64,000 nucleotides of DNA from a phage. Positions 31,493 through 63,508 of the stretch are shown in pieces (the first letter of the stretch is position 1; each line of letters opens with the position of its first letter). The position numbers and the translations under genes are program-made. The stretch lies in the sequence record PZ386973.1; one strand, given 5' to 3'. A model generated the notes under the pieces. The model saw only the letters and a program-made list of their open reading frames with translations, searched no databases and was not told the DNA's origin.

Positions 31493-31503
31493 CCAAATAA
31501 TAG

Positions 31504-31576
31504 GCGGTTAAGCACACGGGTTGTGTCGCAGGCCTTCCAAGCCTCGCTGAGTAGGGTTCGATTCCCTCTAGCCGCT
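31504..31576 (+). tRNA. tRNA-Gly (anticodon TCC)
   Basis: Acceptor GCGGTTA/TAGCCGC, loop CTTCCAA. Confidence 0.6.
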
Positions 31577-31595
31577 CCAACTTTAAGGAAACGTT

Positions 31596-32004: not shown

Positions 32005-32012
32005 CGGGTTTT

Positions 32013-32084
32013 GCTCCTAAAGCATTGCTGGCGATGCAGTTGCCTTGTAAGCATCTGAACCGGGTTCGATTCCTGGTGGGAGCA
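32013..32084 (+). tRNA. tRNA-Thr (anticodon TGT)
   Basis: Acceptor GCTCCTA/TGGGAGC, D-stem GCAT/ATGC, loop CTTGTAA. Confidence 0.65.
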
Positions 32085-32102
32085 CCAAATTTAAAAATTC
32101 AT

Positions 32103-32131
32103 TTGCCTTCTCTCTTATTTATTGTTATAAT
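32103..32131 (+). promoter_or_regulatory. early promoter module
   Basis: TTGCCT-N17-TATAAT. Confidence 0.55.
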
Positions 32132-32161
32132 ATTTATATAAATTAATGAGAGGGAAACCAA

Positions 32162-32455
32162 ATGAAACGTTATCTTTCTGTATTATTCCAAGCTGGTGGT
32201 CAACGCTATACTTACGAATTTCCTAGCTCTTGGAAAATAAAAGAAGGTGATCAAGTAGTAGTGTTAACACCACGTGAAGGGTATAAAGTAGTAACGGTTA
32301 AACAAGTATTTCCAAAAGATCATGAACCGGCTAAAGGCATTCGCTATAAGATGATTCATGGTGTGGTTCGTCAAGTACCACGAGCGGAAGTAGAAATCAG
32401 AGTAGATAAAGATGGTAAACTTAAGTATACTTCTTGCTTAGATGAGTTACTATAA
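32162..32455 (+). CDS. hypothetical protein
   Basis: Track ORF. Confidence 0.45.
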   Translation: MKRYLSVLFQAGGQRYTYEFPSSWKIKEGDQVVVLTPREGYKVVTVKQVFPKDHEPAKGIRYKMIHGVVRQVPRAEVEIRVDKDGKLKYTSCLDELL

Positions 32456-32661
32456 TGAGGATTACTTTCACAGAAAAGATCATGAGTAATGGTGTTATGA
32501 TCATTACCGCATGGGATGGTAATCAGTGGTGTAGTGTTTCAGGTATTAAGCCCGAAGAACAAACACTAGAAAATATCTCAAAGATTAAGCGAAGAATGGC
32601 AGAACGTGCACGACTTCCAGGTGCGCCTAGAAATGGTAAACGTTCTGCAATTAAATGTTAA
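32455..32661 (+). CDS. hypothetical protein
   Basis: Track ORF, ATGA overlap. Confidence 0.4.
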   Translation: MRITFTEKIMSNGVMIITAWDGNQWCSVSGIKPEEQTLENISKIKRRMAERARLPGAPRNGKRSAIKC

Positions 32662-32662
32662 T

Positions 32663-32736
32663 GCTTCGGTAGCTTAGCGATCTAAAGCACTCGGCTGATA
32701 ACCGAGAGATCGGGGGTTTAAATCCCTCCCGGAGTA
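32663..32736 (+). tRNA. tRNA-Ile (anticodon GAT)
   Basis: Acceptor GCTTCGG/CCGGAGT, anticodon stem CTCGG/CCGAG, loop CTGATAA; unusual T-loop TTTAAAT. Confidence 0.6.
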
Positions 32737-32835
32737 CCAAATTTAGGAATTAAGACTATGCGTCCAGGAAAGTTTAAAAAAGCTAATTGGTCTAAAGAGT
32801 ATAAAGAATACTTACTTAGTCTAATAAAACATAAT

Positions 32836-32908
32836 AGTTAGTTGGCAGAGTGGTTATGCACCTCCTTCATACGGAGCGACTACAGTGGTTCAAATCCACT
32901 ACTAACTA
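32836..32908 (+). tRNA. tRNA with CAT anticodon (Met or Ile2)
   Basis: Acceptor AGTTAGT/ACTAACT, loop TTCATAC. Confidence 0.6.
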
Positions 32909-32934
32909 CCAAATTCTAACATCGGGGAGATCTA

Positions 32935-48361: not shown

Positions 48362-49092
48362 TGAAAGATTTGGCTGTAAAGTTTAAGAATATTCTAGCCC
48401 TCGCTAAGGGGGCTGATCATCGCTGTTTCTCTGATTTAACCACTGAAGAGAAACATGCAGTAATGTTTGTTTGCGAAATGTTCCCAGCTAGATGGGAGGG
48501 TGGTAAGATTAAGTATGATAACAAAGCAGCAAAAGCTGACCTTGCTTATTCTTACGTTGATATGAATAAACTCCTAAAGTCTTTAGACCCCACTGCTAAA
48601 GGTCACATGGGAAACTATATTCATGTTATCATTGATGAACCTCTCCCGGCTTATAGAGAAACATCCGCTAGAGAAGCATTAGAAGCATATCCAGAACAAT
48701 TATACATTCCGCCTAAGAAATGTAAGTTCGATCATCTTCCAGCGTTAGCATTTGAAACTAGTATCACGTTTGAAGATATTTATAGAACGATTGGAGCTGT
48801 AGTAGCACGGATTGCAGTGGCACATCATCGTGGCATAGAACTTACTACAGCGGAAGATTATATTCTATACGCTATCCATGATGAAAAGGACTCCTTCAAA
48901 CGTCTAATGGATGCTCTAGGATTAGGCAGTCTCACAGCGCTTGTGCTTAACCAGGCTCCTAGAACCAAGCGTTATGCAAAAGGATCTATTACTCTTGAAG
49001 AAACAGGGTCTACATCTTCATTCCTTGCTACATATATTTATTTAGCATCTAAAGGAATCTATCTAAAGGCTAGAAAGAATGTCACTATATAA
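48361..49092 (+). CDS. hypothetical protein
   Basis: Track ORF. Confidence 0.45.
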   Translation: MKDLAVKFKNILALAKGADHRCFSDLTTEEKHAVMFVCEMFPARWEGGKIKYDNKAAKADLAYSYVDMNKLLKSLDPTAKGHMGNYIHVIIDEPLPAYRETSAREALEAYPEQLYIPPKKCKFDHLPALAFETSITFEDIYRTIGAVVARIAVAHHRGIELTTAEDYILYAIHDEKDSFKRLMDALGLGSLTALVLNQAPRTKRYAKGSITLEETGSTSSFLATYIYLASKGIYLKARKNVTI

Positions 49093-49435
49093 AGTATATA
49101 TTCTTGCAAACAGGGATCTGACAAAGATCCCTAAGAGAACAAAGATCGGTATTAGCATGAATCCACATAATAGGATTCAAACACTAAACTTAGATAAGAT
49201 AGTCTATCGAGGTTTTGACGATTTATACGTGTATGGGGTCTATGAAACCCATAATCCTAGAGATCTAGAAGCCGCTGCTCATATCTACTTTAAGAAATAC
49301 CGTTGTAATTTAAAGGGATTCGAAGGATGTACAGAGTTCTTTGATATTCACCCACAACTTGCAGAACGATTCCTATTAAATACAGGAGCCAAGAAGATTT
49401 ACGATCCCAATACCAATCTCGAAGGAGATGTATAA
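49079..49435 (+). CDS. T5orf172/GIY-YIG-like domain protein
   Basis: YKVYILANRD...KIGISMNPHNRIQTL resembles the T5orf172 pattern as recalled. Confidence 0.45.
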   Translation: MSLYKVYILANRDLTKIPKRTKIGISMNPHNRIQTLNLDKIVYRGFDDLYVYGVYETHNPRDLEAAAHIYFKKYRCNLKGFEGCTEFFDIHPQLAERFLLNTGAKKIYDPNTNLEGDV

Positions 49436-49452
49436 ACATTAACAAAATCTTC

Positions 49453-49482
49453 TTGACAACTCATTGCGGCACATGTTATAAT
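49453..49482 (+). promoter_or_regulatory. consensus sigma70 promoter (TTGACA-N18-TATAAT) reading into the repeat field
   Basis: Canonical hexamers; no ORF downstream for about 1.4 kb. Confidence 0.5.
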
Positions 49483-49835
49483 AATCTCATAGATTAAAAA
49501 CAACTCTTGTTTTGAACTCTAGGGGCGATGATTATTACACTTAGTATTACGTCTATACGTTGCGACAGCACGAGTATAGATCTAATTACTAAGTCTTCCG
49601 TAATACTCACGCGCCCCACGAGTAAGCTCTCATGAAATGGGGGGACTATTTACTTTTAAAATATATGAAAATATTTAAAGGCAATATCTGTGTTCAAGAT
49701 GGTACACCTGTTGCCGCTCTTCTGCTAGGATGGCACAACACTTTCTTCTAGACTCCTAAGTTTATCACGAAATACCACACTTCTAGTGGGCGGTTCTCCT
49801 AAGTTTCTAGGAACATATACTAGGCGGTTAATACA

Positions 49836-49880
49836 GGGCGGTTATAGGGAGGGCGGTTATAGGGAGGGCGGTTATTTCTA
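49836..49880. repeat. tandem repeat, 3 copies of GGGCGGTTAT(A)GGGA
   Basis: Three adjacent copies read directly. Confidence 0.8.
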
Positions 49881-49917
49881 GAAGACATTTTTTGAAAACA
49901 CATTTCCAGAAATTACT

Positions 49918-50517
49918 GTCGGATTTGCACACTGCATTTCTAGAAATTTATGGTCGGATTTGCACAAACGCCTAAGTTTTTAGGAACATATAATCTCTTG
50001 AAAATAGCAGCATTATTTCGGGCCGAAGGCCCATGATTGCCTGAGTTTTTAGAGCCACAGAAATTTTCCCTTGTCAAGCTATTTTGCCACATTTAGCTAA
50101 TAAAATTTTACTTTTTCTGCACCTATCTCAAATCTTCTCCAATTATCTCAACTCTTCCCCAAAATCCCGGCAAATCTGGTGCTCCGCACCAACCATGCGC
50201 CCACATCCCTCTAGTCCCCAAAATTTCTTCGTTCTCTCAACTTCTCTCCAAACCTATACAATCACACACCCTCTAATCGAAGTCATAAAAATCTTGTCGG
50301 ATTCGCACATCTTAATCCTAGAAAAACCGTGTCGGATTTGCACATACCCCACAGGATTCGAACGCAGTTCGTGATTGCTGGAGTTTTTGGGAAAATTCAT
50401 TGTCGGATTCGCACACTATAAAAATTTTTAGGGTCGGATTTGCACACTACCAAAAATTGTCGGATTCGCACATACACGCCAGCACGTAACCCGTGGAGCA
50501 AATGTCGGATTTGCACA
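49918..50517. repeat. iteron array: 8 direct copies of GTCGGATT(T/C)GCACA
   Basis: Copies at 49918, 49963, 50296, 50331, 50402, 50433, 50459, 50504, all same orientation. Confidence 0.85.
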
Positions 50518-50522
50518 AAAGC

Positions 50523-50700
50523 GCAGGGCAATTGCCCTGCTAGTTTGAATGCGAATAAAAATGAGAATCATTATCATTTAAAAAGCGGAATGCGAATGAG
50601 AATCATTATCATTTACGAAAGGGAATGAGAACTATTCAGGAAGTGAAACGATTCTCATTTAGATAGTGAAATGCGAATGATAATGATTCGCATTTAAAAA
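50523..50700. repeat. 18-bp palindrome GCAGGGCAATTGCCCTGC plus direct and inverted copies of a GAATGCGAATGAGAATCATTATCATTTA unit
   Basis: Palindrome 50523-50540; repeat copies around 50547-50615 and inverted or palindromic copies 50646-50696. Confidence 0.75.
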
Positions 50701-50727
50701 CGGAAGTGAGAAACACTGTTATTTAAG

Positions 50728-50819
50728 TTATCCACAGACTTATCAACAGCACGATTTGACTTGACAAAATCCTAGCCATTTTGAGGCGTTATTAACAGAC
50801 TTATCCACAGCTTATCCTA
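50728..50819. promoter_or_regulatory. cluster of DnaA-box-like 9-mers (TTATCCACA and variants)
   Basis: TTATCCACA at 50728 and 50801; variants TTATCAACA, TTATTAACA, TTATCCTAC. Confidence 0.6.
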
Positions 50820-50835
50820 CTGTATAAATATACAG
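50796..50835. repeat. left arm of a 40-bp inverted repeat (partner 54682-54721)
   Basis: CAGACTTATCCACAGCTTATCCTACTGTATAAATATACAG; reverse complement matches the right arm at 39 of 40. Confidence 0.8.
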
Positions 50836-50986
50836 TATTCCTACGCAGTGAATAGTTCTAATATAGCGTTAAAACGTCCTAGATCGCATTCTAACGCGTT
50901 TAATTTTGGTGGGGATACTAAAACAAGGGGGTATTTATCTGGAGGGAGAAAAACGGGGATCAGATCCCCGTCGATTATTAGAAAAG

Positions 50987-51100
50987 AGGGCAATTATCCC
51001 GCTTTGCCATTTCGCGCCACTCATCCTGATGCCTAGACTTGCGACGGCGTACTAAAAACCGTTTATACCAGTGATTAAACCATCGTTTCATAAATCCTCC
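50987..51100 (-). CDS. small basic protein
   Basis: ATG after GAGGAGG; 37 codons; below track threshold. Confidence 0.3.
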
Positions 51101-51291
51101 TCAGGTAGTCGATGCGTGATCTTCTCCTCTTCCCCATAGGAATCGACCAAATGTTGATAATAACCATCGGCATCATAAATCACTTTATCATATTCGCCAC
51201 GCTCGACCGCTTGCCGATTCTCAGGTGTATCCGGCACATAGAAAACATCAACCATTGTGGTAGTTTTGGTCACAATAATTTTATTGCTCAT
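51088..51291 (-). CDS. hypothetical acidic protein
   Basis: Track ORF. Confidence 0.4.
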   Translation of the reverse strand: MSNKIIVTKTTTMVDVFYVPDTPENRQAVERGEYDKVIYDADGYYQHLVDSYGEEEKITHRLPEEDL

Positions 51292-51514
51292 AATAACGCT
51301 CCGTTATTAAAAATCCCCATATATTCCCGGCCAAATTTTACTAGTAACATAAGTTACTATCCCGGCAACAATTACGCTATAAACTATTAATAAGGTAAAC
51401 ATTAAACCAGACATAATAACTCCTAGTAAATATATTTTTGCCAATAGTGGCGAACGTTATCGCCACCAGCGGAATCATTAGCTGCCTCAGCATTACCAAC
51501 GAAAATATATAATC

Positions 51515-51874
51515 TCATTGTGCCACCTTTCGGAATGCTGTTTCAATACTATCCGCAGTGGATTGAATATATGCGCCTTTCATTATCAGGCGCTCAGTGC
51601 ACACCTTACGGAAGATATTAATAAAATCATCTTCATTTTCTGCGATTAATGCCTCCCCCATGACCTGAATATCACAAGATGCGAAAGTCAAAAATTGAAA
51701 CGCTAGTTCACGGGCAACGACCGCATTGATTTTATAATGCGCCTTGCCCTCATAAATATTAATAACGCCCTTGTAAGCCGGGGAAAGCTGATTTAAGTAG
51801 TTTGCTAACACTGCCGGACGGCAATTAGTAACAAAGCGATTGCCTTCATAAATTATCATTTGCATAGCTCCCAA
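51515..51874 (-). CDS. hypothetical protein
   Basis: Track ORF. Confidence 0.45.
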   Translation of the reverse strand: MGAMQMIIYEGNRFVTNCRPAVLANYLNQLSPAYKGVINIYEGKAHYKINAVVARELAFQFLTFASCDIQVMGEALIAENEDDFINIFRKVCTERLIMKGAYIQSTADSIETAFRKVAQ

Positions 51875-52101
51875 ATAGTTCCGCCGATAATCATTAGCTG
51901 ACTAATGATTATCAGAATAAAACCGATTGAAGGCAGGACGCCCCAATATTGGAACGCCCTTTTAATTTGTTGAATCATTTGTTAGCCTCCCAATTAGATA
52001 GCCAGATAATAACATAAAGATCCCCAGTAAAAGGGGATCATTTTTAAATAAGGTGGCGGTAAAACCGCCAACCATTGCAAGGGTAATAATAATAACGCTT
52101 T

Positions 52102-52314
52102 TCATAGTACCCCACGAAAGGCCGCGTAAAAGGTGGCAAAGTGTTTAACCGTTTCAGCGATCACGTTGCCGCGCTTATCAAATTTCTTTTCGGTAACACG
52201 AAAGGCATTTTTGTTACGTGCTACATATTCGATTTTACAATCAGGACGCTCAAACGTGTTTACATCCACCAGCTTAAAGCCTTTCGAACGTGCAAGAGAA
52301 ACGTTGCGAATCAT
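52102..52314 (-). CDS. hypothetical basic protein
   Basis: Track ORF. Confidence 0.4.
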   Translation of the reverse strand: MIRNVSLARSKGFKLVDVNTFERPDCKIEYVARNKNAFRVTEKKFDKRGNVIAETVKHFATFYAAFRGVL

Positions 52315-52317
52315 TTT

Positions 52318-52470
52318 TTATTCTCCTTTACTAGTCATGCAGCCCAGCAGATAAGAAAATGCAGCGATACCCGCGCCAATAATAACCGCGTGGACACCGA
52401 AAGCTATTGCAAAAAGGGATAAAATAGCGCCCAAGATACCTGCTAGAATAGCTCGAAAAATAACCATTTT
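52318..52470 (-). CDS. small hydrophobic membrane peptide
   Basis: 50 codons, two hydrophobic segments; one of several sub-threshold TM mini-ORFs between 51303 and 52470. Confidence 0.35.
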   Translation of the reverse strand, partial: KMVIFRAILAGILGAILSLFAIAFGVHAVIIGAGIAAFSYLLGCMTSKGE

Positions 52471-52513
52471 CATTCTCCTAGTTAGTGGGGCGAAAGTAAC
52501 GCCCCATTATTAA

Positions 52514-52746
52514 TTACATTAAAACAATTTTAGCGGCTTGTTTTTTGGTGCAATGTTCCGCTTTCAGGGTATCCAGCAAAAAGCCAGCCGTTTGCTGATC
52601 GATTTTATCGGCATTATATAGTTCCTGAATGGTGTTATAGGTTTTAGCAATGCCGAACTCCTGCACCATTTCATGAATGATGACGCGATTAGATACCCAA
52701 CCTTGCGCGGTGAACAGATGACTAGCAGAAGAATATGCAACCATTT
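52514..52746 (-). CDS. hypothetical protein
   Basis: Internal ATG with GGAGG RBS. Confidence 0.4.
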
Positions 52747-52811
52747 TAAGCCTCCAAATTTTTGGGAAAATTTTCAACCGTCCTCAAACGGTGTAAAGGC
52801 ATTATAACAAA

Positions 52812-52838
52812 AAAGGCCGCCATAATAGGCGGCCTTTA
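52812..52838 (-). terminator. intra-operon terminator/attenuator hairpin
   Basis: AAAGGCCGCCATAATAGGCGGCCTTT with a T-run on the minus strand. Confidence 0.45.
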
Positions 52839-52850
52839 CAAAACTTTACA

Positions 52851-53345
52851 TTAAACTACTTGTAAGGATTCAACATTGAAACATCGTTTTAATTCGTCAT
52901 GCAAAACAGCGTATTCCTCCCATCGGGTACTATCAGGAATATAAACAAGCTGTTTTAATCGGTTTGCATATATTACCGCTTTGTTATCAATTATCTCGAC
53001 GCCACCATATTTAATAACTAATTTCATGACGGAATTAATAGGATCGCCGCCGTTTACATATGTGCCGGACTTACTCAATTGATAATGATAAAGGCTTGCA
53101 TACACGTTGTCATTTTCAACCCATTCGCCAGTATCCTCATCTTCATACCCATCGCTACCAAAACGAGAAGCATTATCAATAGCCATTTCCTGAGCGAAAG
53201 CGTCGAGATCTGTACCAGCAGGAACAAAATATTCTTCGGTGTTCCCTTCCCCGCAGTACCCAGTATGGCAATCGACCAAAATGATCATATCGTGTTTTGC
53301 CGTGCTCACTTCTCCCAGTGAGAAGCCATATTTTTCCTCAGCCAT
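52851..53345 (-). CDS. hypothetical acidic protein
   Basis: Track ORF. Confidence 0.5.
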   Translation of the reverse strand: MAEEKYGFSLGEVSTAKHDMIILVDCHTGYCGEGNTEEYFVPAGTDLDAFAQEMAIDNASRFGSDGYEDEDTGEWVENDNVYASLYHYQLSKSGTYVNGGDPINSVMKLVIKYGGVEIIDNKAVIYANRLKQLVYIPDSTRWEEYAVLHDELKRCFNVESLQVV

Positions 53346-53410
53346 TTATTATCCTCCTATTAATTAATCAGGGAATAGTAAAGCGGGGAAACAATCCCCG
53401 CTAGATATTA

Positions 53411-54415
53411 TTATTCGCTTTCGGTGCTAGTGGTGAAGGTAGAAATATCGATACCTTTTACCATTTCATCAATCATTTCAGCGATGTTAAAACTTTGCAC
53501 CATTTCCAACATTGCCGCTTCCATAGCTGCCCCTGCTACCGCTTTCGCTTTCTGATTGCTTGGGGCATACTGGTCAACCGCTACGCTCAGCAGGTTGGCA
53601 ATTACTACTCGACCAATCGGCGTATCAATATAACCTTTAATCATGAACGGTGCTTTTTTAGCCGCTACTTTCGTAATTTGAGTCAGTGCAATTTTACCCG
53701 CTTCCAGTTTTGCAGCGTTTACAACAGCGGATTTATTAGCGGCAACAATATTAGCGATCTTGGTCATAGTATTTTTTCCTTTGTTTTCAGTAGTTTGAGT
53801 ATTAACGCTTTGAGTGTTAGAATTTACAACATGGTTTTCTGTATTGTCAACTGGTTTTAGCGTAAATCCAGCATTTGCAACATTTGATTCATTCCCATAC
53901 TCTAAATAATCGCTAGGGATCAACATGTTACCCGTTGACTTTTCAAAACACAAAACACCAGTTGTTTCTATTGCGTAACTATCCGCACCTTTATAGTTTG
54001 ATGATAGTTCACGCCAGATACTATTTAGTAACGATTCGACACTATCAAGCCTGATATTATTTATTTTTGTTGCTATTACCTGCTCTTTTTCTTGCACGTT
54101 ATATAATCGCGCAATGTAACCATTATTCGGCTCACTGTAACCAACAATGATAAAATCAATATCAGTTCCCCGACTGTTACGGAAAACGTGATAATCACGG
54201 TTGAAAATTACTAGTACCCTTGTCTGGTCTAGTAGTAATATGAAATCATTGACTGAATAATGAGTATCATTACTGTCTAAAATTTCATCATGAATCTTTT
54301 CAACCATGCTAGCGGTATGTTGTACACTTGCCGCGCTACTACCATCTAGCAGGTTGCGCAAACTACCCTTTACAATAGTTGCGTTTGCTGGTACTGCAAT
54401 TCTAGTAAAAGACAT
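53411..54415 (-). CDS. hypothetical two-domain protein with low-complexity linker
   Basis: Track ORF; first gene of the minus-strand cassette. Confidence 0.5.
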   Translation of the reverse strand: MSFTRIAVPANATIVKGSLRNLLDGSSAASVQHTASMVEKIHDEILDSNDTHYSVNDFILLLDQTRVLVIFNRDYHVFRNSRGTDIDFIIVGYSEPNNGYIARLYNVQEKEQVIATKINNIRLDSVESLLNSIWRELSSNYKGADSYAIETTGVLCFEKSTGNMLIPSDYLEYGNESNVANAGFTLKPVDNTENHVVNSNTQSVNTQTTENKGKNTMTKIANIVAANKSAVVNAAKLEAGKIALTQITKVAAKKAPFMIKGYIDTPIGRVVIANLLSVAVDQYAPSNQKAKAVAGAAMEAAMLEMVQSFNIAEMIDEMVKGIDISTFTTSTESE

Positions 54416-54681
54416 TCTCTTGTCTCCCTCGTTAATCGGTGAGTGAATGATAAAGGTATTTTCTTTCTAGGGGCAAATATTATTTTACCTTTTTATTTTC
54501 CTTGCCTAACGCCTAGTTTTATGCTAACCGCGCAGCGGTGCAATAAAGAGCAAACCACGGCGAAGCCACCAGGCCGACGCATCGAGGCTTTACTTTAATA
54601 TTACCCCACCGCATTTAGCTCGTTAGAAAGCGTTTTAGGCGGCCTAAAATTGATTGCAGTTGTTAACACTACCTTTTTACC

Positions 54682-54721
54682 CTGTATATTTATACAGTAG
54701 GATAACCTGTGGATAAGTCTG
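54682..54721. repeat. right arm of the 40-bp inverted repeat (partner 50796-50835)
   Basis: CTGTATATTTATACAGTAGGATAACCTGTGGATAAGTCTG. Confidence 0.8.
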
Positions 54722-54789
54722 TGTAAAACTCCTTATATCGCCGCCTATCGTGTCAAATTATTTTGTGCTGTGGATAACGTTGTGGATAA
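54699..54789. promoter_or_regulatory. cluster of DnaA-box-like 9-mers (TGTGGATAA orientation)
   Basis: TGTGGATAA at 54708, 54769, 54781; TAGGATAAC at 54699. Confidence 0.6.
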
Positions 54790-55150
54790 CTTAAATGATA
54801 GTGGTTCTCACTTAGGCCGATAGTTTCTTATAGTTATTATTTCTATCGGTTACGATTTCTTATAATTATTATTTCTCACTAATTTATATGTATATTATAT
54901 ATTATAGAATAGTTAGTTGGCTAATGAGATTTTCCGTGATTAATAGTCTGCTAATAGTTTAAGCCGTTACAATCCACCAGCATGATTATCATCCTAGCAA
55001 TTATTAGTCTGCTATCTTTCCGATGCATACTAACAAATAAAAGTCAATTAATTTAGTTCATAAAATAAGTAGTTATCCACTGGAAAATAAAAGTCAAGTG
55101 GATAACTAGGAAAATTTCATTTTTGCTTTTGGGGATAAGTTATCAACAAG
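54790..55150. promoter_or_regulatory. AT-rich region with an inverted DnaA-box pair (origin-like)
   Basis: Long A/T-rich tracts; TTATCCACT at 55073 and AGTGGATAA at 55097; no ORF. Confidence 0.4.
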
Positions 55151-55493
55151 GCTAGAATGCGCCTAAAACGCCCTAGAATGCGATGAAAGTTTTAGTCATG
55201 CCATTGCATTGCCTACCCTCGTTTATCTCTACCACGAGCTTTTTAGGTTTTGTCAAGTAGGGCAAAGCAAATATAAATGAAAAAATTACTTGCCTATCTG
55301 CTATGTTTTGTGGTATTCGCGCGCCCGTTTCTTTTAATTTTAGTGCGCCGCGCCCAGGTCGCCGCACGCCGTCCGGTGAATCGTGTCTTTACATTTCTTT
55401 ACAAAAATAAGGTTGCGCCATTTTCGGGAATCCCCTATTATTTATCACGTAGGGCGGCAATGACGAACTACACGGCGGGAAGTTTACCGCCAC

Positions 55494-55532
55494 GCTCTTT
55501 AAAAATTGGGTACATCTTAAAGCCTATCGGCG
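55494..55532. repeat. left arm of an imperfect inverted repeat flanking ORF 55564-55767
   Basis: TGGGTACATCTTAAAGCCTATCGGC core; partner 55773-55813. Confidence 0.65.
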
Positions 55533-55563
55533 GTAAACTTATACATTATAAGGAATCGACGAT

Positions 55564-55767
55564 ATGAAACAAACTTTATTGATCACTGGCAAGCCTAGCA
55601 AGGCACTAGATAGCAAAACAAAAAATTTGTTGACAGTAGCGCAAAGATCGGTAAAATACCGATTCAAGCAATACAAGAAAGGCCGCCAGCAAGGTCTAGA
55701 AATGATCTGGCGAAATATTATGATTGACTTGAAAGAAAATCATAAAAAATCTCAAAAAATTGTTTGA
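55564..55767 (+). CDS. small basic protein flanked by inverted repeats
   Basis: Track ORF; AAGGA RBS; Lys/Arg-rich. Confidence 0.4.
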   Translation: MKQTLLITGKPSKALDSKTKNLLTVAQRSVKYRFKQYKKGRQQGLEMIWRNIMIDLKENHKKSQKIV

Positions 55768-55772
55768 CAACC

Positions 55773-55813
55773 TAGCCGATAGGTTTTAAGATGTACCCAG
55801 TTCGATAAGAGCG
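55773..55813. repeat. right arm of the inverted repeat flanking ORF 55564-55767
   Basis: GCCGATAGGTTTTAAGATGTACCCAG core. Confidence 0.65.
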
Positions 55814-55997
55814 ATAACTTGATAAAATTTGACGGTCGGTGCTTACCATAATGCATCCCGCCCCCTAACTGGGATATAGCGGCCTACGTGGAGTTCTTTA
55901 AATTGATTTAACTGGCGAGCGGATTGTTACTTATTACCTGCTACTGTTTTCTAGCAGGTAATGCGGAACAATCCTCAAATAACTAGGAGTTTATATT

Positions 55998-56249
55998 ATG
56001 CAAAACGTTATCACCGCGCCGAAAGTTGGTCAGTCTGTTTTTATTCCTTTCGTTACCAAAACGGATGAATTAACCGGAAAGGCCGAACGTATTAAAGGTG
56101 CGGCGCTTATGCCGTTTGATACAATCGACGCGGTATATGCTGAAAATGAACGCAGTAACAACGGCAAACCCGTTTTTAACGTTCGTGTTAAATCCGGCGA
56201 CGTTGTAAAGGTTGTTCAACGCAACGAAAAATGGGAAGCTGTATTATAA
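55998..56249 (+). CDS. hypothetical protein
   Basis: Track ORF after AGGAG. Confidence 0.45.
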   Translation: MQNVITAPKVGQSVFIPFVTKTDELTGKAERIKGAALMPFDTIDAVYAENERSNNGKPVFNVRVKSGDVVKVVQRNEKWEAVL

Positions 56250-56350
56250 TCTAGTGTTAACTTTATATTCCCCTGAAATATGGGGAATATAACGATTAAC
56301 ATTAAGTTAATCATTAAATCCCTTAAATTAAACAAATAGGAGTTTTTACC

Positions 56351-56758
56351 ATGACTAACGTTAAAACCGCAAAATTCGCTTGGAATGAAGAAAACACTCA
56401 GAAAGCTGTTTCTATGTACCAGCAGTTAATCAATGAAAACGGTTTAGATTTCGCAAATAGTGACGGCCTGAAAGAAATTGCAAAAGCAGTTGGCGCGGCT
56501 TCTCCCGTATCCGTTCGGTCAAAATTGACCAGCGCGAAAGCGTATCAGAAAAGCGATAAGCCGCGCAAAGTTGGCGGTGGTAGCTCAATCCGCAAAGCGC
56601 ATTATGTACGCGTTATTGCTAAACATGCTATTGATTCCGGCATTATCAAAGACGCCGATGATCTGGCAAGCCTTGAAAGTGCTAAACTTGAAACGCTGGA
56701 CGCCGTGGCGCAACTGTTAGGCGTTGCCGATGAAGTGAAACAAGCCGCAGGAGAATAA
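56351..56758 (+). CDS. pre-early-region protein, possible A2 counterpart
   Basis: Track ORF after AGGAG; sits immediately upstream of the A1-like gene; assignment by position and size only. Confidence 0.4.
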   Translation: MTNVKTAKFAWNEENTQKAVSMYQQLINENGLDFANSDGLKEIAKAVGAASPVSVRSKLTSAKAYQKSDKPRKVGGGSSIRKAHYVRVIAKHAIDSGIIKDADDLASLESAKLETLDAVAQLLGVADEVKQAAGE

Positions 56759-56846
56759 TTATATACATTGCCCTTCCTAGTGGGAGGGCAATAATATAAC
56801 TGTTTAGCGATAGTTATTTTCTTCCCTTAAATCAGGAGTTTTAAAA

Positions 56847-57044
56847 ATGATTTTCTTTCCTACTGAGTCATTAATTTTAGGCTTGTTTATTATGGCGGCC
56901 TCGTTATTACTCGCTTATTTTCAAAATGATTTAGATTCATATTATTTTAAACGTAAATCTAAGTTAGCAAAGCGTTTAGGTCTGATTTGTTTTATTGCCG
57001 CCGTTGCTTGTGGTGTTAGTTCTAGCCTTATGCCTTTAAATTAA
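56847..57044 (+). CDS. small membrane protein
   Basis: Track ORF with hydrophobic helices. Confidence 0.3.
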   Translation: MIFFPTESLILGLFIMAASLLLAYFQNDLDSYYFKRKSKLAKRLGLICFIAAVACGVSSSLMPLN

Positions 57045-57118
57045 TGTTGCAAATTATAACGCCTATTATTCAAGGCGTTATATTTGGCAATATTGCCGTT
57101 ATTAACTTAATCCCTTTA

Positions 57119-58798
57119 ATGGAGTTTATTACTATGATTATTTCCGCAGAAAAACAAACCGTTATCCTGAAAATGGCCGCTGACTTTAATTTCTATGGTA
57201 AACGTCTGCGCGCCACTAAACTGGAGGTCTGCGACGATATATCAAAAGCGGTCTACGATACAACAAAACACTCGACCGCTATCTGCGACTGGCTGGAAGC
57301 AAATAAACCAGTTAAACCGAAAGCGGCGAAAGTAGCAAAAGCCATTAAAAACGATGAGCGTCCAGAAGCGGCGGGGATTGTTTCTAGCACGGTTGAACAG
57401 TGGGAAGTAAAACAAGGCAAACGCTTTATTATTACGTCGATTCAGAATAATACTTTCCCGCATAAAAACTTTTTAGCCTCATTGGAAAAATTCGCTGAAT
57501 ATATCGGTGCTGATTTGCTTGTTTCTAAGTATATTTATAATAAAAACGGCTTCCAAAATGGCGAGGGTGCGGATGGAATCAAATATGATTCCGCGTTCGA
57601 TAAATATATTTGCAGCAAAAACGTGTTTTTAAATAACCGCCGTTTTGCTTTCATGGCTGAAATTAATGTTTTGCCAACAGCAGACTATCCGCTTTCTGGA
57701 TTCGCTGAAACTGCAACGGCGCTTAATCTGGAAGGTCTGGCAATCGGTCATGCTAAAATCACCGCTGAAAGCGTGCCAGCTCTCAAAGGTGAAGTAGTAC
57801 GCCGCATGTATTCAACCGGAACGGCAACGCTCAAAAACTACATTCAGCAGAAAGCAGGGCAAAAAGCGGAAGCGCTTCATAACTTTGGTGCGCTGATTGT
57901 CGAGTTCGACGAGGACGGGGAGTTTTTTGTTCGCCAGCTTGAAACTATGGATGAAAGCGGGGTGTTTTATGATCTGAATGTTTGCGCTACTCCCGCCGGA
58001 TGCTATGAAACAACGGGGCATGTTTTAGGCTTGCAATATGGTGACATACACGCCGAAAAATTGGATGATGATTGTGCCGTTGCGTCATGGGCTGGCGAAA
58101 ATAGCTTGCTTGATATTCTTAAACCAAAATATCAGTTTGTGCATGATGTGCATGATTTTACATCGCGCAACCATCACAACCGCGCTTCGGGTGTATTCCT
58201 AGCAAAACAATATGCCGCCGGACGTGATAAAGTTCTGGATGATCTTATCGATACGGGGCGCGTGCTGGAATCGATGGAACGAGATTTTAGCCAAACAATC
58301 ATTGTTGAATCTAATCACGATCTGGCGCTATCCCGCTGGCTTGATGATCGTAATGCTAACATTAAAGACGATCCAGCAAACGCGGAACTATATCACCGCC
58401 TGAATGCCGAGATTTATGGAGCTATTGCAGAAAAAGACGATACTTTCAACGTGCTAGATTATGCATTGCGCAAGGTTGCAGGTTGTGAGTTTAACGCCAT
58501 TTTCCTAACAACTGACCAATCATTTAAAATTGCAGGCATCGAGTGTGGCGTACACGGTCACAACGGCATTAACGGCAGCCGTGGCAATCCTAAACAATTT
58601 AAGAAATTGGGCAAATTGAACACCGGACACACTCACACCGCCAGCATTTACGGCGGGGTATATACCGCTGGCGTTGCTGGTAGTCTCGATATGGGTTACA
58701 ACGTTGGCGCGTCAAGCTGGACGCAAACGCATTTAATTACCTATGCAAACGGGCAGCGCACTTTGATCGATTTTAAGAATGGTAAATTCTTTGCGTAA
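57119..58798 (+). CDS. A1: A1-like pre-early protein with metallophosphoesterase domain
   Basis: GDIHA, GHNG and GHTHT metallophosphatase motifs; about 555 aa from the internal ATG; matches T5 A1 as recalled. Confidence 0.6.
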   Translation: MEFITMIISAEKQTVILKMAADFNFYGKRLRATKLEVCDDISKAVYDTTKHSTAICDWLEANKPVKPKAAKVAKAIKNDERPEAAGIVSSTVEQWEVKQGKRFIITSIQNNTFPHKNFLASLEKFAEYIGADLLVSKYIYNKNGFQNGEGADGIKYDSAFDKYICSKNVFLNNRRFAFMAEINVLPTADYPLSGFAETATALNLEGLAIGHAKITAESVPALKGEVVRRMYSTGTATLKNYIQQKAGQKAEALHNFGALIVEFDEDGEFFVRQLETMDESGVFYDLNVCATPAGCYETTGHVLGLQYGDIHAEKLDDDCAVASWAGENSLLDILKPKYQFVHDVHDFTSRNHHNRASGVFLAKQYAAGRDKVLDDLIDTGRVLESMERDFSQTIIVESNHDLALSRWLDDRNANIKDDPANAELYHRLNAEIYGAIAEKDDTFNVLDYALRKVAGCEFNAIFLTTDQSFKIAGIECGVHGHNGINGSRGNPKQFKKLGKLNTGHTHTASIYGGVYTAGVAGSLDMGYNVGASSWTQTHLITYANGQRTLIDFKNGKFFA

Positions 58799-58851
58799 TT
58801 AAATTATTCCCTAGCGGCTTGAAATATAGCCGCTATTACAGGAGTCAAAAA

Positions 58852-59109
58852 ATGAAAGTTACATTACCCAAAACATTGGACGAAAAAGTATTCATTTCAC
58901 CGGATGAAATGGAATCTGATAAAGTTTACAGCTTCGGGCCTATCCTAGCCGCCAAAACTAATACGGATGGAATTATTACAGTCGATTATCGTGATAATGA
59001 TGTTGTCCCCTTTGACGATGATGACGCTTTTTATGAATGGTTGAGCGATAATAATTTACCCGTAAATGGTGAATTAACGCCGTATCAAATGCAAATTATT
59101 ATTAAATAA
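58852..59109 (+). CDS. hypothetical acidic protein
   Basis: ATG 58852 after CAGGAG. Confidence 0.4.
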   Translation: MKVTLPKTLDEKVFISPDEMESDKVYSFGPILAAKTNTDGIITVDYRDNDVVPFDDDDAFYEWLSDNNLPVNGELTPYQMQIIIK

Positions 59110-59147
59110 ATTAAATCCCCTATTAAACTAATTGGAGTTTTATAAAT

Positions 59148-59540
59148 ATGAAAAAGCAAAATATCCCATTCGATCGCGCTCAGTCCTCAATTGTTCTGGT
59201 TTATTCTAATGGCGAACGTTACCACGTCGAGGCGGGGCATGTTATTGATGACCTATTAGATTTCAATGACGCTGTGCAGGTTACTACCTTTGCCTATACA
59301 CAAGGCAAACTAACCAGCCATATTAAGGCAAAAGGCGTTTATGTTGACACGGTGAAACAAGAAACGATTATCATCGATGCCGTAAAATCCGGCCTAGCCT
59401 TTGCAGTTGTCGCGCCTTGCCTCGCTTGCCTTGATGATCAATTGATTAGTGCAAAGGTCTACACATGTGCGGGGATTCGTTCTAGCGTATCCGGTGAGGA
59501 TGTTAGTTTTATCGCTGATGCGTTGGCTTATGGTCTTTAA
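59148..59540 (+). CDS. hypothetical protein
   Basis: Track ORF. Confidence 0.45.
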   Translation: MKKQNIPFDRAQSSIVLVYSNGERYHVEAGHVIDDLLDFNDAVQVTTFAYTQGKLTSHIKAKGVYVDTVKQETIIIDAVKSGLAFAVVAPCLACLDDQLISAKVYTCAGIRSSVSGEDVSFIADALAYGL

Positions 59541-59627
59541 TAGTTGATTGAACACAGCCCGCTGATAAAGTATCATTAGTGGGCTGGATTGAATTAACTT
59601 AATCCCTTAAATGGAGAATGCAACAAA

Positions 59628-60362
59628 ATGAATCAAGTTAAAACGAATATTACCCGTAATTTCCCGCATATTTCCCGCGTTATGATTTGGGATCTGGACG
59701 GCACTATCATTAATTCTTTCCATCGTGTAGCGCCTTGTTTTGATAGCGAGGGCAATTTAGATTTAAATAAGTATAAAAATGAAGCCTGCAAACATCATTT
59801 AATAATGCAGGATTCATTATTGCCATTAGTTGAATATATGCGCCAGTGCATGAATGACGCTAACACGCTAAACATTATTTGCACCGCTCGACTAATGAGC
59901 AAATCAGATTATTATTTCTTGCGTAAACAAGGATTGCGAGGGCGTGGAAATAGTAATATCCGCGTGTTTTCCCGCGATACCCTGCACAAATACTTTAAAG
60001 CTGATAAGGTTAGCGAAATATACCACAGCAAGGACGCAGTATATAAAAGCCATTATTTTGAATTATTTAAACAATTATATCCGAACGCTGATTTTACAAT
60101 GATTGATGATCATAAAGGCGTGTTAGCGGCGGCGGCATCATACGGATTTAAAACGCTAGACGCGCAAGCCGTTAATGATATTCTATCAATCGGTGTTACA
60201 TTGATTGGTGAAACCTTTATTGATGAATCGCTCGACGATGATAATGATTATCAGTTCCTGGCCGACCGCCTGCAATTATGTTGGGAAGGTATGACCGAGG
60301 AAGAACGCGCAGAATATAGTTGCAGCCCGCAACAATATATTGAGAAATTAAAAGTTGCGTAA
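59628..60362 (+). CDS. dmp: HAD-family 5'-deoxyribonucleotidase-like protein
   Basis: MIWDLDGTIINS (DxDGT motif I); 244 aa; matches T5 dmp as recalled. Confidence 0.6.
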   Translation: MNQVKTNITRNFPHISRVMIWDLDGTIINSFHRVAPCFDSEGNLDLNKYKNEACKHHLIMQDSLLPLVEYMRQCMNDANTLNIICTARLMSKSDYYFLRKQGLRGRGNSNIRVFSRDTLHKYFKADKVSEIYHSKDAVYKSHYFELFKQLYPNADFTMIDDHKGVLAAAASYGFKTLDAQAVNDILSIGVTLIGETFIDESLDDDNDYQFLADRLQLCWEGMTEEERAEYSCSPQQYIEKLKVA

Positions 60363-60380
60363 TAATTAAAGTTGAAATAG

Positions 60381-60417
60381 TTTCATCCTGCAATTAAAAT
60401 GGTTGCAGGATGAAACA
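60381..60417. terminator. bidirectional terminator hairpin
   Basis: GTTTCATCCTGCAA...TTGCAGGATGAAAC 14-bp stem between convergent genes. Confidence 0.55.
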
Positions 60418-60527
60418 ATTACCCTGCTAATAGTAACGGGGTGTGGCGGTTAGCAGACTAAGTATTTTCCCCCAACCCACTGGACACACCTCCATGTGTA
60501 ATCTTATGAAATTTGGCAAAAGGTTAA

Positions 60528-60773
60528 TTAGCGCATAGAAGGGTCATCAAACCGATGTTCGGGTCTAAACTCACGAAATCTCTTCCGCGACGCCCGAGAA
60601 CCGTCCGCCCACTCCCGTTCAAACTCCGCACGTTTTTCATCAAACCTCTGCTCCCTTTCCGCAATCTCCCGCGATACTTCCGCAATATATTTGCGATGCT
60701 TGTTAATGGCCGCAGTCATTCCGAAAACTCCCGCGATTATTCCGATAATAAAAGCAATTACAATACTAAACAT
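60528..60773 (-). CDS. small membrane protein
   Basis: Track ORF with N-terminal TM helix. Confidence 0.4.
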   Translation of the reverse strand: MFSIVIAFIIGIIAGVFGMTAAINKHRKYIAEVSREIAEREQRFDEKRAEFEREWADGSRASRKRFREFRPEHRFDDPSMR

Positions 60774-60960
60774 CTAGTTCTCTCTCAATTTGCAGAATAC
60801 GAGTGCTATCACAACGTTGCAGTTTTACTGATTTTTCTATAGCTAATTGTTGTTGTTTTACTCTGGCTTCTAGAGTTTTTAGGCGAACATACTCGGTATA
60901 AGAAACAAGGAAAATTGCCCGGACTAATATTACTATTAGTGTAGCTGCCAATTCCATCAT
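60766..60960 (-). CDS. small membrane protein
   Basis: Track ORF; followed by two more sub-threshold TM mini-ORFs around 60960-61207. Confidence 0.4.
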   Translation of the reverse strand: MMELAATLIVILVRAIFLVSYTEYVRLKTLEARVKQQQLAIEKSVKLQRCDSTRILQIERELDV

Positions 60961-61368
60961 TTACGTTTCTCCGTTAATAACGTTTCAATTCTAGCCAGGT
61001 GGTTATCTAAAATACATTGCCCAATAATCACAATCCCTAGTAGTGCAATAATTACCCATTCCATTAAATCCACCCCGCCATAGCTGCTAACCAAAAACCT
61101 ACGAAAATAAAGAATAGGATAGTCCCAAGTCCAAAACTATTAATCCAGCTATCATACACCTCTCCGCGTCTGCTCTTTCTTTTGTTTGACATATCTTTCA
61201 TGCTCCTATAAGTGTGGTATTTAAAATAGTCTATAATTTGTACACAACCAACCGTGCTTATAGACTCCTAGAAGGACTTCTACTTTTCCTACCTAGTGGT
61301 TTCTGCCAGTACACCATCCAAGAAATAAAAAATTTAGTTTACTTGGATGTCTTTTTGTTTTATACTAA

Positions 61369-61635
61369 TTACAAGTAATTAGATTGTTCTAGTTTAAATT
61401 TACAGTCACCATATTTAAGGTCAAACTGACTGAGATCCCACCACCCAAACTTAGTACGGAGCTGTACTACTGGAAAGCGATCTCCCTTAATACGAACTTT
61501 TTGAACCTTGAGGCCGTAATGTTCTTCTCCCGCACCCCCAAAAGATTTTACAAATCCCGTACAAAATGGTTTAGGAGCAGGTGCACAACCAGATAACATA
61601 ACTGCGGCAACTAGTGCAATCACAAACTTTTTCAT
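61369..61635 (-). CDS. llp: small lipoprotein, Llp-like (candidate receptor-blocking protein)
   Basis: Lipobox MKKFVIALVAAVMLSGC; divergent from and adjacent to the receptor-binding-like gene. Confidence 0.55.
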   Translation of the reverse strand: MKKFVIALVAAVMLSGCAPAPKPFCTGFVKSFGGAGEEHYGLKVQKVRIKGDRFPVVQLRTKFGWWDLSQFDLKYGDCKFKLEQSNYL

Positions 61636-61720
61636 ATTTATCTCTCCATTTCTAATTTATGAATCTATTATAGCAAAATAGAGAGATAAAAGCAAATACA
61701 TTTTTATAATAGGAGATTAT

Positions 61721-63508
61721 ATGGGTTTTTTCGCTGGAAAATATAGTGATGGTAAAACTGTATTATCACTAAACAAAGTGAATGGTGGGGATATTAATGC
61801 CCACAAAACTCCTAATGCCAATACTATATTTCACTCTGATATGCCATTTGTTCTAGTTGAGAGTACTTATGAAAGTGCACTTTCTAATGCTGGAAATGGC
61901 TTTTTTGTATGTCAGATGCCTTCTGTGATAGCTAACCTAAAAAGTAATGATCCTGGTAGGGTTATACTAACCGCTGTTGAGATAAATGGTACACATAGAG
62001 CTTTTCTTAACGGTACTCAATCCCAGGTTGGGCAATTTCTTGCATTTTTTGAAGATCCCCCTATTGGTAGGGCTGGTGCTGAACTAGGCCTTACGTCAGC
62101 TTTTGCATCTGGTAATAGTTTGGCACATGGTACTTACACTTATAACTCCAGTCTAGGCCATGAAGAGTCAATAGCTAGACAAGGTACTGGTGGTACTATA
62201 TCACAGGCTTCTGGATTTAACTTATACAGACCTGGAGGGGCATATGCCGGTGAAGCTATCGGTAGAGCATGGACTTTAGCAGGATTTCCAGCTGGAGCAT
62301 CTAAAGTATCGATAAATAGTGGTAATGTTGACTTCTGGCACCCTAATTGGCAAGCTCCTATAGGGGCTGGGAAAAGGGGTCATAATTGGTTTTATGTTTG
62401 TAATTCCAATATACGTGGGTATGCAGGTAAAAAAGGTACTACGCCAAGTAATGTTAGTGTCCTATATAATTCTTCAACCTATCCAAATAAGGTTTATGTA
62501 TGCAGAGGCTCGACATCTAACTTAGCATCACAAGCAGCAAAGAAGATGTATGTGCAGGATAGTTATAATGTTACTCCTACCAAAGTTATTTGGTATGTGC
62601 TGAATCTTAGATACTCTAATGGTAGTATGAGCGTTGCTAGTAATCCCTTTACTGGATCCGATATTCTTATAAGCCCCTCTAATTTTACTATAAAAGGTGT
62701 TAGTCTTCCAAATACTAGTTACAAATTCATTAATCAGAATGCTTTTGGTAACTTATCGTCTAGACCTGATATGGAGTACATTGGTAATAACGTTGCTTAT
62801 ACCGGAGTCTTTGGAGACACTACAGCAAGATGCGAGATTGTAGGTTCTAACAAAGGCTCTTTATGGTCTCCGGTAAATTATGGGGGCTCTAAATCTCAGA
62901 TAAGTATTTACAAATTTTCTGCTGGTAAACAATGGTATGTTAATTCCAATAATAATACTATAGGTAATGAGCATGGGGTTGTTTGGGGACCTTCTTCAGT
63001 ACCTTTACGATTACTGCCAAATAACGTAGCTAGTACTTACATAGGTGATGATATAAACCCCTCTTATCCAGGTACAGGAAATAAGTACGTAGGGCTATCT
63101 ACCGTAGGCCTTGGATTACCTAATGCAAACTCTACAGTAATCCTAACTACTGAGGTAGTTGCCGGAAATCTTAATACAGCAGGAGGTCCTATACGAACAT
63201 ATGGTGGCACTGCGTGGCAGGTGCAAGGTAGAAGACAACAAAGTTATACAGGTGGTGATGGGGTATTCCATCAAATATTAACTTTACCACCTAATCAGTT
63301 GGTGCCCTTCCATACTACAGCTTCTTATAGCTATACACAGCAGTGGGCTAGTCGACCTGATGATTTAACATTTACTAGAAGTGGATTTATTTATACTATT
63401 AAAAATTTGGGTAACGGTAACGCTGAGTTAGGTGTAGTTATACATGCAAATGAATCCGCCGCAGTTTTCTTACCGAGATTACGAGTAACAGTTCAACGCC
63501 TTACCTAA
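61721..63508 (+). CDS. receptor-binding tail protein-like (pb5/oad-like)
   Basis: 595 aa, Gly/Asn/Ser/Thr-rich; position next to the lipoprotein gene. Confidence 0.5.

What the first reader, a model, noticed from the sequence alone, without database searches (positions are those of the whole stretch)
49440..61300. Terminal-repeat-like block placed between early and late genes suggests a collapsed or permuted assembly
The repeat field, the pre-early cassette, the A1-like and dmp-like genes and then, after a bidirectional terminator and membrane mini-ORFs, the lipoprotein and receptor-binding genes follow each other directly. If this genome has T5-like terminal direct repeats, the physical end would lie near 60400-61300 and the repeat would span roughly 49.4-61.3 kb.
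Basis: inference. Interest (0 to 1): 0.45.

Follow-up and report, generated by a model that had tools for sequence, protein, structure and literature searches.

The report
Collapsed T5-type terminal repeat in assembly
The window comes from a T5-like phage whose roughly 10.4 kb terminal repeat appears once, joined to both the early and the late genes, which is the well-known way assemblers collapse such repeats, so the finding is correct but ordinary.

Summary
The window is a Tequintavirus-type (T5-like) genome, read as the reverse complement of the T5 map. It runs: early genes, iss repeat field, pre-early block (A2, A1, dmp), hairpin, four membrane mini-ORFs, llp, pb5.

Only one copy of the terminal repeat (TR) is present. 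It is collinear with the LTR/early junction on one side and the late/RTR junction on the other. That topology cannot exist in virion DNA, so the sequence is a collapsed, permuted assembly (formally also a replicative junction).

The proposed span of 49440-61300 is too wide. The right termini of seven relatives (T5, MM-1, MM-2, BF23, Sw2, Sepoy, HdH2) all project onto window base 50052. The left termini of T5, HdH2, MM-1 and MM-2 project onto 60485/60486. The predicted repeat is therefore 50052-60486, about 10,435 bp. The mini-ORFs (60528-61201) and 612 bp of the repeat field lie outside it.

Two copies in the virion are inferred from homology, because no reads are available. At least 82% of A1-matching phage records also hold a single copy, so this is already known and of low interest.

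One side observation: an unannotated, promoter-driven, roughly 170-nt long-hairpin element at 49453-49660 keeps its shape across T5-like phages.

The parts
50052..60486 (.). Projected single (collapsed) copy of the T5-type long terminal repeat (LTR = RTR; first-step-transfer DNA), about 10,435 bp.
   Evidence: T5 base 1 aligns to 60486, and the T5 and MM-1 record ends align to 50052.
60486..60486 (-). Predicted left physical terminus. The genome starts here and reads towards lower coordinates: TGTCCAGTGG...
   Evidence: T5 and HdH2 records begin TGTCCA(C/G)TG, which is the window reverse complement from 60486. MM-1 and MM-2 begin one base further in, at 60485. The late-side flank matches the T5 late/RTR junction at 28 of 30 bases.
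50052..50052 (-). Predicted right physical terminus, the last base of the RTR: ...TTCTGTGGCTC | TAAAAACTCAGG.
   Evidence: TR ends of T5, MM-1, MM-2, BF23, Sw2 and Sepoy, plus the record end of HdH2, all map to this base. The window matches T5 at 59 of 60 bases around it.
50003..50122 (.). Non-coding block of about 120 nt around the right cut site, conserved across two genera. It includes the GGGCCGAAGGCCC hairpin just outside the repeat.
   Evidence: Mean column conservation is 0.92-0.98 in 9 genomes plus the window, against 0.5-0.85 in the flanks.
50122..51105 (.). Equivalent of the T5 injection stop signal (iss) region, T5 9140-10149.
   Evidence: Coordinate mapping from the annotated T5 record.
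49918..50517 (+). Eight GTCGGATTYGCACA repeats, probably the 'DRD' repeats of T5 Repeat Region 3. Two copies (49918, 49953) lie outside the repeat.
   Evidence: 8 found against 0.03 expected. Davison (bioRxiv 10.1101/866236) reports that Repeat Region 3 overruns the LTR by 270 bp in T5.
50704..50835 (+). Inverted-repeat arm (IRD'-spacer-IRC' type) carrying two pairs of DnaA boxes at 50728/50740 and 50789/50801, each pair separated by 3 nt.
   Evidence: It matches T5 9411-9542.
54682..54813 (-). Partner inverted-repeat arm (IRC-spacer-IRD type) carrying two pairs of DnaA boxes at 54708/54720 and 54769/54781.
   Evidence: It is 79% complementary to the other arm and matches T5 6098-6228.
50520..50521 (+). 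Equivalent of the T5 'major DNA single-chain interruption' (T5 9748/9749). The local sequence is identical.
51088..54415 (-). Pre-early block homologous to T5.011-T5.017. It includes a 334-aa protein (53411-54415), a 164-aa protein (52851-53345) and a 70-aa T5.014-type protein (52102-52314).
55277..60362 (+). Pre-early operon: small ORFs, A2 (56351-56758), a 65-aa membrane protein (56847-57044), A1 (57044-58798), two small ORFs, and dmp (59628-60362).
60380..60416 (.). 17-pair hairpin between the dmp stop codon and the left terminus, inside the repeat and 70-106 nt from the end.
   Evidence: -27.9 and -25.6 kcal/mol, z about -6.5 on both strands.
60528..61201 (-). Four membrane mini-ORFs homologous to T5.159-T5.162. 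They are unique late-end DNA, outside the repeat.
   Evidence: In T5, T5.162 ends 42 nt before the RTR; here it ends 42 nt beyond 60486.
61369..63508 (.). llp (61369-61635, minus strand) and the receptor-binding protein pb5 (61721-63508, plus strand). Both are unique late-end DNA.
49440..50051 (.). Unique non-coding DNA between the last early ORF and the repeat end. It holds a promoter-driven hairpin element (49453-49660), GGGCGGTTATAGGGA repeats (49836-49880) and two DRD repeats.
   Evidence: The LTR-side alignments of T5 and MM-1 continue through it. Sequence.

Best explanation
The window is a T5-like (Tequintavirus-type) phage genome in which the two identical direct terminal repeats of about 10.4 kb have been merged into one copy during assembly. 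The contig therefore runs early genes, then TR, then late-end genes, and its start is arbitrary.

In the virion (inferred), the DNA would start at window base 60486 and read downwards through dmp, A1, A2 and the iss region to 50052. It would continue through the early and then the late genes, re-enter from the pb5/llp/mini-ORF side, and end with a second copy of 60486 to 50052.

The repeat is the first-step-transfer DNA. Its pre-early genes act first, and the repeat-rich iss region with four pairs of DnaA boxes lies near its inner end. That functional description comes from established T5 biology and was not tested here.
For: Shown here:
- 86-91% nucleotide identity and full synteny with T5 and MM-1 across the block.
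- One TR copy is collinear with both the LTR/early and the late/RTR junctions. There is no second copy in the window.
- Seven right termini converge on 50052 and four left termini on 60485/60486. These come from annotated repeat features (BF23, Sw2 and Sepoy state PhageTerm) and record ends.
- The cut-site sequence is conserved.
- Pre-early genes are identified. DnaA-box pairs and iss repeats are present.

From the literature:
- DTR phages show twofold coverage between the termini, and assemblers pick an arbitrary first base (PMC5557969).

Database context: the A1 query gave 529 places in 450 records, so at least 371 records (82%) hold one copy.
Against: - No reads, depth or end information exist for this sequence, so the presence of two copies and the exact cut positions are inferred from homology.
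- Two relatives have annotated repeat ends that differ: K38 by 28 nt at the right end and about 33 nt at the left, and chee158 by 209 nt and about 116 nt. The conserved cut-site motif is nevertheless present in both.
- The source contig was not found in IMG/VR or the metagenome collection, so its length and topology are unknown.
Confidence: 0.88

Rival explanations
1. The sequence is a genuine biological junction. It would come from intracellular circular or concatemeric replicative DNA, in which neighbouring genome units share one repeat copy, rather than from an assembly collapse of virion DNA.
For: [quoted passage not shown] The topology in the window is identical to that.
Against: Sequence alone cannot separate this from the collapse explanation. 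Most phage genome data come from virions, and collapse is the routine outcome (PMC10783031). It does not change the repeat boundaries or the biology.
Confidence: 0.08
2. The repeat of this phage really spans about 49.4-61.3 kb, so it would include the mini-ORFs and the whole repeat field.
For: Repeat lengths vary among relatives (8.7-10.4 kb annotated). Non-coding repeats do extend to 49.84 kb.
Against: - In T5 and MM-1 the mini-ORFs exist once, upstream of the RTR only.
- Seven right termini and four left termini agree on 50052 and 60485/6.
- The window carries nearly identical cut-site sequences.
- Davison notes that the repeat field overruns the LTR into unique DNA.
Confidence: 0.03
3. This phage has no fixed terminal repeat and is instead circularly permuted with headful packaging, so the contig is a correct circular representation.
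For: None specific. It simply cannot be excluded formally without reads.
Against: Every characterised relative at this identity level has long fixed DTRs (PMC10644984; PMC10783031). Both cut sites are conserved in the window.
Confidence: 0.01

Closest known systems
Escherichia phage T5 left and right terminal repeats (NC_005859, 1-10219 and 111532-121750)
   Same: - The gene order matches: dmp, A1, A2, a divergent block and the iss region.
- The same 132-nt inverted repeats with paired DnaA boxes are present.
- The nick-site sequence is identical.
- The sequence around the right cut site matches at 59 of 60 bases, and the first six bases at the left end (TGTCCA) are the same.
- The flanks match: T5.162 lies 42 nt from the repeat, and the T5.019-T5.022 early genes lie on the other side.
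   Different: - The window has one copy instead of two.
- Overall identity is about 86-88%.
- The HNH endonuclease gene hegG (T5.010) is absent.
- An extra 164-aa ORF is present.
- llp and pb5 are of a different type (pb5 is 31% identical to that of T5).
- The 250 bp next to the last early gene differ.
Escherichia phages vB_EcoS_MM-1 and MM-2 (PV577657, PV577658), with annotated LTR/RTR of 10,407 and 10,299 bp
   Same: These are the closest relatives with annotated repeats at both ends. They show about 90% identity over nearly the whole repeat. The right end maps to 50052 and the left end to 60485.
   Different: Their records carry both copies. Part of the T5.011-like gene region differs: there is no MM-1 match for window 53840-54339.
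BF23, Sw2 and Sepoy, whose terminal repeats were determined or predicted with PhageTerm
   Same: All three have the same right cut site, mapping to window 50052. Their left ends begin (G)(C/T)(T/C)CA (PMC10644984).
   Different: Repeat lengths are 9,743, 9,816 and 10,295 bp. Sw2 and Sepoy belong to another genus (Epseptimavirus). Their left-end sequences diverge from the window after about 10 nt.
Collapsed direct-terminal-repeat assemblies in general (T7-type short and T5/SPO1-type long DTRs, as handled by PhageTerm)
   Same: A single repeat copy is flanked by both unique ends, and the contig start is arbitrary (PMC5557969).
   Different: Nothing differs in kind. Only the twofold coverage signature could not be examined here.

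Membership tests
T5-type long direct terminal repeat (Demerecviridae LTR/RTR, first-step-transfer DNA) | Two identical direct copies sit at the two physical ends of the linear virion DNA. | not testable with these tools
   Only one copy is present in the 64-kb window. No reads or virion data are available, so the second copy is inferred from homology.
T5-type long direct terminal repeat (Demerecviridae LTR/RTR, first-step-transfer DNA) | It carries the pre-early genes dmp, A1 and A2 in T5 order and orientation. | tested here: met
   A2 at 56351-56758, A1 at 57044-58798 and dmp at 59628-60362, all transcribed towards the left terminus.
T5-type long direct terminal repeat (Demerecviridae LTR/RTR, first-step-transfer DNA) | An untranslated iss repeat region near the inner end, with inverted repeats carrying eight DnaA boxes in pairs separated by 3 nt. 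| tested here: met
   Searches show four pairs at 50728/50740, 50789/50801, 54708/54720 and 54769/54781. The criterion is taken from Davison, bioRxiv 10.1101/866236.
T5-type long direct terminal repeat (Demerecviridae LTR/RTR, first-step-transfer DNA) | The terminus sequences match those of relatives whose ends were determined. | tested here: met
   seven genomes map to 50052, and T5, HdH2, MM-1 and MM-2 map to 60485/6.
T5-type long direct terminal repeat (Demerecviridae LTR/RTR, first-step-transfer DNA) | The flanks are T5.159-162, llp and pb5 outside the left boundary, and the first early genes outside the right boundary. | tested here: met
Collapsed or permuted assembly of a DTR genome | One repeat copy is contiguous with both unique flanks, in the interior of the contig. 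| tested here: met
   One search shows alignments running through both boundaries. One search shows a single copy.
Collapsed or permuted assembly of a DTR genome | Twofold read depth over the repeat, with opposed read-start peaks at its two edges. | not testable with these tools
   No read data are available. The criterion is from PMC5557969.

The most novel reading that the evidence does not exclude
The finder's interval holds something not annotated in any record inspected, in the 612 bp that turn out to lie outside the repeat. It is a roughly 170-nt structured RNA gene at 49453-49660.

It has a perfect sigma-70 promoter, then a small hairpin with compensatory changes, then a 95-147-nt hairpin, then a terminator. 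The basal stem of the long hairpin is conserved in six of the nine versions compared; the T5, Sw2 and L022 versions differ throughout. All nine versions still fold as a single long hairpin.

It could be an undescribed phage non-coding RNA. Less likely, it is a cis-acting DNA hairpin linked to formation of the nearby terminus.
Probability: 0.45. Interest if true: 0.45.

Novelty: already known. Interest (0 to 1): 0.12.

Why it matters
The value is practical rather than conceptual. It tells an annotator three things about this contig:
- It is not a true circular or end-to-end representation.
- The virion genome is about 10.4 kb longer than the assembly.
- The record should be re-opened at 60486, in reverse-complement orientation, with 50052-60486 duplicated at the far end.

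It also shows that the T5-type cut sites can be transferred by homology to the base, because seven relatives agree on the right end. Many deposited T5-like genomes could be corrected this way without reads.

The biology of the block itself (first-step transfer, pre-early genes, iss) is textbook T5.

Tried and rejected
- **Source contig.** I looked for it with exact 40-mers spanning both junctions in IMG/VR and in the metagenome collection and found nothing. Contig length and topology could therefore not be used.
- **Rfam.** A scan of 49000-62000 at E up to 1 gave only sub-threshold, evidently chance matches, such as plant miRNA and leader families, and none at 49453-49660.
- **Discordant annotated ends.** The K38 and chee158 repeat annotations end 28 and 209 nt from the common site. 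I treated them as imprecise rather than as evidence for variable termini, because both genomes contain the conserved cut-site motif at the expected place.
- **T5 repeat length.** The figure of 10,139 bp quoted in the literature conflicts with 10,219 bp in NC_005859. I checked the deposited sequence directly and found 10,219 bp identical with no mismatches, so I used that.
- **Terminator scan.** The simple scan did not call the dmp-distal hairpin, so 'bidirectional terminator' is kept as a hairpin with inferred function.
- **Literature.** Searches for a described T5 small RNA at this position found nothing relevant.
Full report
**What the window is.** The interval 49440-61300 matches 557 phage records by megablast. 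Nearly all are T5-like Demerecviridae from Escherichia, Salmonella and Klebsiella, at 86-93% identity and up to 95% coverage. The window reads as the reverse complement of the standard T5 map. T5 bases 1-1376 align to window 60486-59104, and the rest of the T5 left terminal repeat follows down to about 50 kb. The window also carries 22 tRNA genes at 21.4-32.9 kb, as expected of the T5 early region.

| Gene | Coordinates | E-value |
|---|---|---|
| A2 | 56351-56758 | 4e-52 |
| A1 | 57044-58798 | 5e-244 |
| dmp | 59628-60362 | 1e-57 |
| T5.162-type membrane protein | 60528-60773 | 1e-45 |
| llp/Cor | 61369-61635 | 2e-26 |
| pb5 receptor-binding protein | 61721-63508 | 5e-268 |

The repeat field is far beyond chance:
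- GTCGGATTYGCACA occurs eight times between 49918 and 50517, with 0.03 expected.
- There are 62-nt direct repeats at 50535-50712.
- A 132-nt inverted repeat lies at 50704-50835 and 54682-54813.
- The two arms carry eight DnaA-type boxes in four pairs, each pair separated by 3 nt. This is the arrangement Davison describes for the T5 iss region (bioRxiv 10.1101/866236).

The 'bidirectional terminator' is a 17-pair hairpin at 60380-60416 with z about -6.5 on both strands. The consensus terminator scan did not call it, so its function is inferred. The described order of features is therefore real.

**Topology.** The T5 and MM-1 left repeats align through their inner boundary into the window's early side: T5 8936-10608 matches 51309-49693, and MM-1 9507-11009 matches 50929-49434. 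The T5 late/RTR junction aligns through the outer boundary: T5 record 110785-112907 matches window 61233-59104. A self-comparison finds no second copy of the block in the window.

One repeat copy contiguous with both unique flanks cannot exist in a linear virion genome of the form LTR, early, late, RTR. It is what assemblers produce when two identical repeats are merged and the contig is opened at an arbitrary point (PMC5557969; PMC10783031). Formally it is also what replicative circles or concatemers contain. The outcome is common: the A1 gene query gave 529 places in 450 records, so at least 371 records (82%) hold a single copy.

**Boundaries.** I projected the ends of relatives with annotated or deposited termini onto the window.

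Right end:
- T5 (10,219), MM-1 (10,407), MM-2 (10,299), BF23 (9,743, PhageTerm), Sw2 (9,816, PhageTerm), Sepoy (10,295, PhageTerm) and the record end of HdH2 all map to the same base, window 50052.
- The junction reads ...TTCTGTGGCTC | TAAAAACTCAGG....
- The window matches T5 at 59 of 60 bases around this site.
- The site sits in a 120-nt non-coding block with 0.92-0.98 column conservation across two genera.

Left end:
- T5 and HdH2 begin TGTCCA(C/G)TG, which is the window reverse complement from 60486.
- MM-1 and MM-2 begin one base further in.
- The T5.162 homologue ends 42 nt beyond 60486, the same spacing as in T5.

Two annotations disagree: K38 by 28 nt and chee158 by 209 nt at the right end. 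Both genomes still contain the conserved cut-site motif at the common position, so I regard those annotations as imprecise.

The predicted repeat is therefore 50052-60486, about 10,435 bp, not 49440-61300. The four mini-ORFs (60528-61201) are unique late-end DNA. The outer 612 bp of the non-coding field (49440-50051) are unique early-side DNA. This agrees with Davison's remark that T5 Repeat Region 3 overruns the LTR by 270 bp. The literature figure of 10,139 bp for T5 does not match the RefSeq record, whose two copies are identical over 10,219 bp.

**Mechanism.** The repeat is the first-step-transfer DNA. From established T5 biology, not tested here:
- It enters the cell first.
- Its pre-early genes (dmp, A1, A2 and others) shut down the host and allow second-step transfer.
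- The iss region near the inner end halts injection.

The equivalent of the T5 iss annotation maps to 50122-51105. The T5 major nick site maps to 50520/50521 with identical local sequence. How terminase generates a 10-kb repeat is not settled. PhageTerm's authors describe it generically as extension synthesis from staggered nicks. The conserved sequence blocks at both cut sites fit site-specific cutting, but this remains inference.

**Verdict.** The repeat span needs trimming by 612 bp on one side and 814 bp on the other. Nothing here departs from known T5 biology. It is a routine assembly feature of T5-like genomes, so novelty is 'already known' and interest is low. The twofold depth and read-end peaks that would prove it could not be examined.

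**Side observation: a hairpin element outside the repeat.** In the 612 bp that fall outside the repeat there is a perfect TTGACA-18-TATAAT promoter with a TG extension at 49453-49482 on the plus strand. It is followed by:
- a small hairpin,
- a 96-nt hairpin at 49522-49617,
- a hairpin plus T-run at about 49621-49660.

The MFE z-score is -6.1. In total 289 phage records match this stretch, and none of the records inspected annotates an RNA there.

Across relatives:
- The -10 element and the 5' and 3' parts are nearly invariant, and the -35 hexamer is mostly TTGACA.
- The small hairpin shows compensatory changes.
- The long hairpin occurs in at least seven versions with unrelated apical sequence, plus different sequences at the same position in T5 and Sw2. 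All nine versions fold into one long hairpin, with z from -3.9 to -8.8 for the eight relatives and no shuffle of 200 folding as well.

Rfam has no match, and two literature searches found no description. I did not establish that it is transcribed or what it does.

Noticed in passing
window 49453-49660 (+): A candidate unannotated non-coding RNA lies just outside the repeat. It has a perfect extended -10 sigma-70 promoter, a small hairpin with compensatory changes, a 96-nt hairpin and a terminator-like hairpin with a T-run. The long hairpin occurs in nine sequence versions across relatives (T5 and Sw2 included), and each still folds as one long hairpin (eight relatives z -3.9 to -8.8; whole element in the window z -6.1). 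There is no Rfam match, no annotation in the records inspected, and nothing in two literature searches.
   Followed up: partly
window 61369-63508: The receptor-binding protein pb5 is 99% identical to that of Escherichia phage phiP4 (PP993145) but only 31% identical to T5 pb5. The llp and pb5 region also has no DNA-level match to T5. The receptor is therefore probably not FhuA, but it was not determined here.
   Followed up: partly
window 50520-50521: The position equivalent to the T5 'major DNA single-chain interruption' has the same local sequence (CCCTGCGC|TTTTGTGC on the T5 top strand). It lies next to a GCAGGGCAATTGCCCTGC palindrome.
   Followed up: partly
window 49836-49880: A tandem GGGCGGTTATAGGGA unit (two full copies plus a variant) lies in unique DNA just outside the repeat end. 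T5 has a shorter version at 10393-10425.
   Followed up: no
window about 54955-55043: The T5 HNH endonuclease gene hegG (T5.010, T5 5411-5929) has no counterpart, and the flanking sequences are joined directly. Davison notes that most T5-like phages lack this insert.
   Followed up: no
L007 (Kenya-K38) and L008 (chee158), annotated repeat ends: The deposited DTR and LTR annotations end 28 nt and 209 nt short of the cut site shared by seven other genomes, although both genomes carry the conserved cut-site motif. These are probably imprecise database annotations.
   Followed up: partly
L003/L004 (T5 NC_005859): The T5 terminal repeat is quoted as 10,139 bp in the literature. The two copies in the RefSeq record are identical over 10,219 bp.
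   Followed up: yes
window 21381-32911: A cluster of 22 tRNA genes lies on the plus strand, typical of the T5 early region.
   Followed up: no
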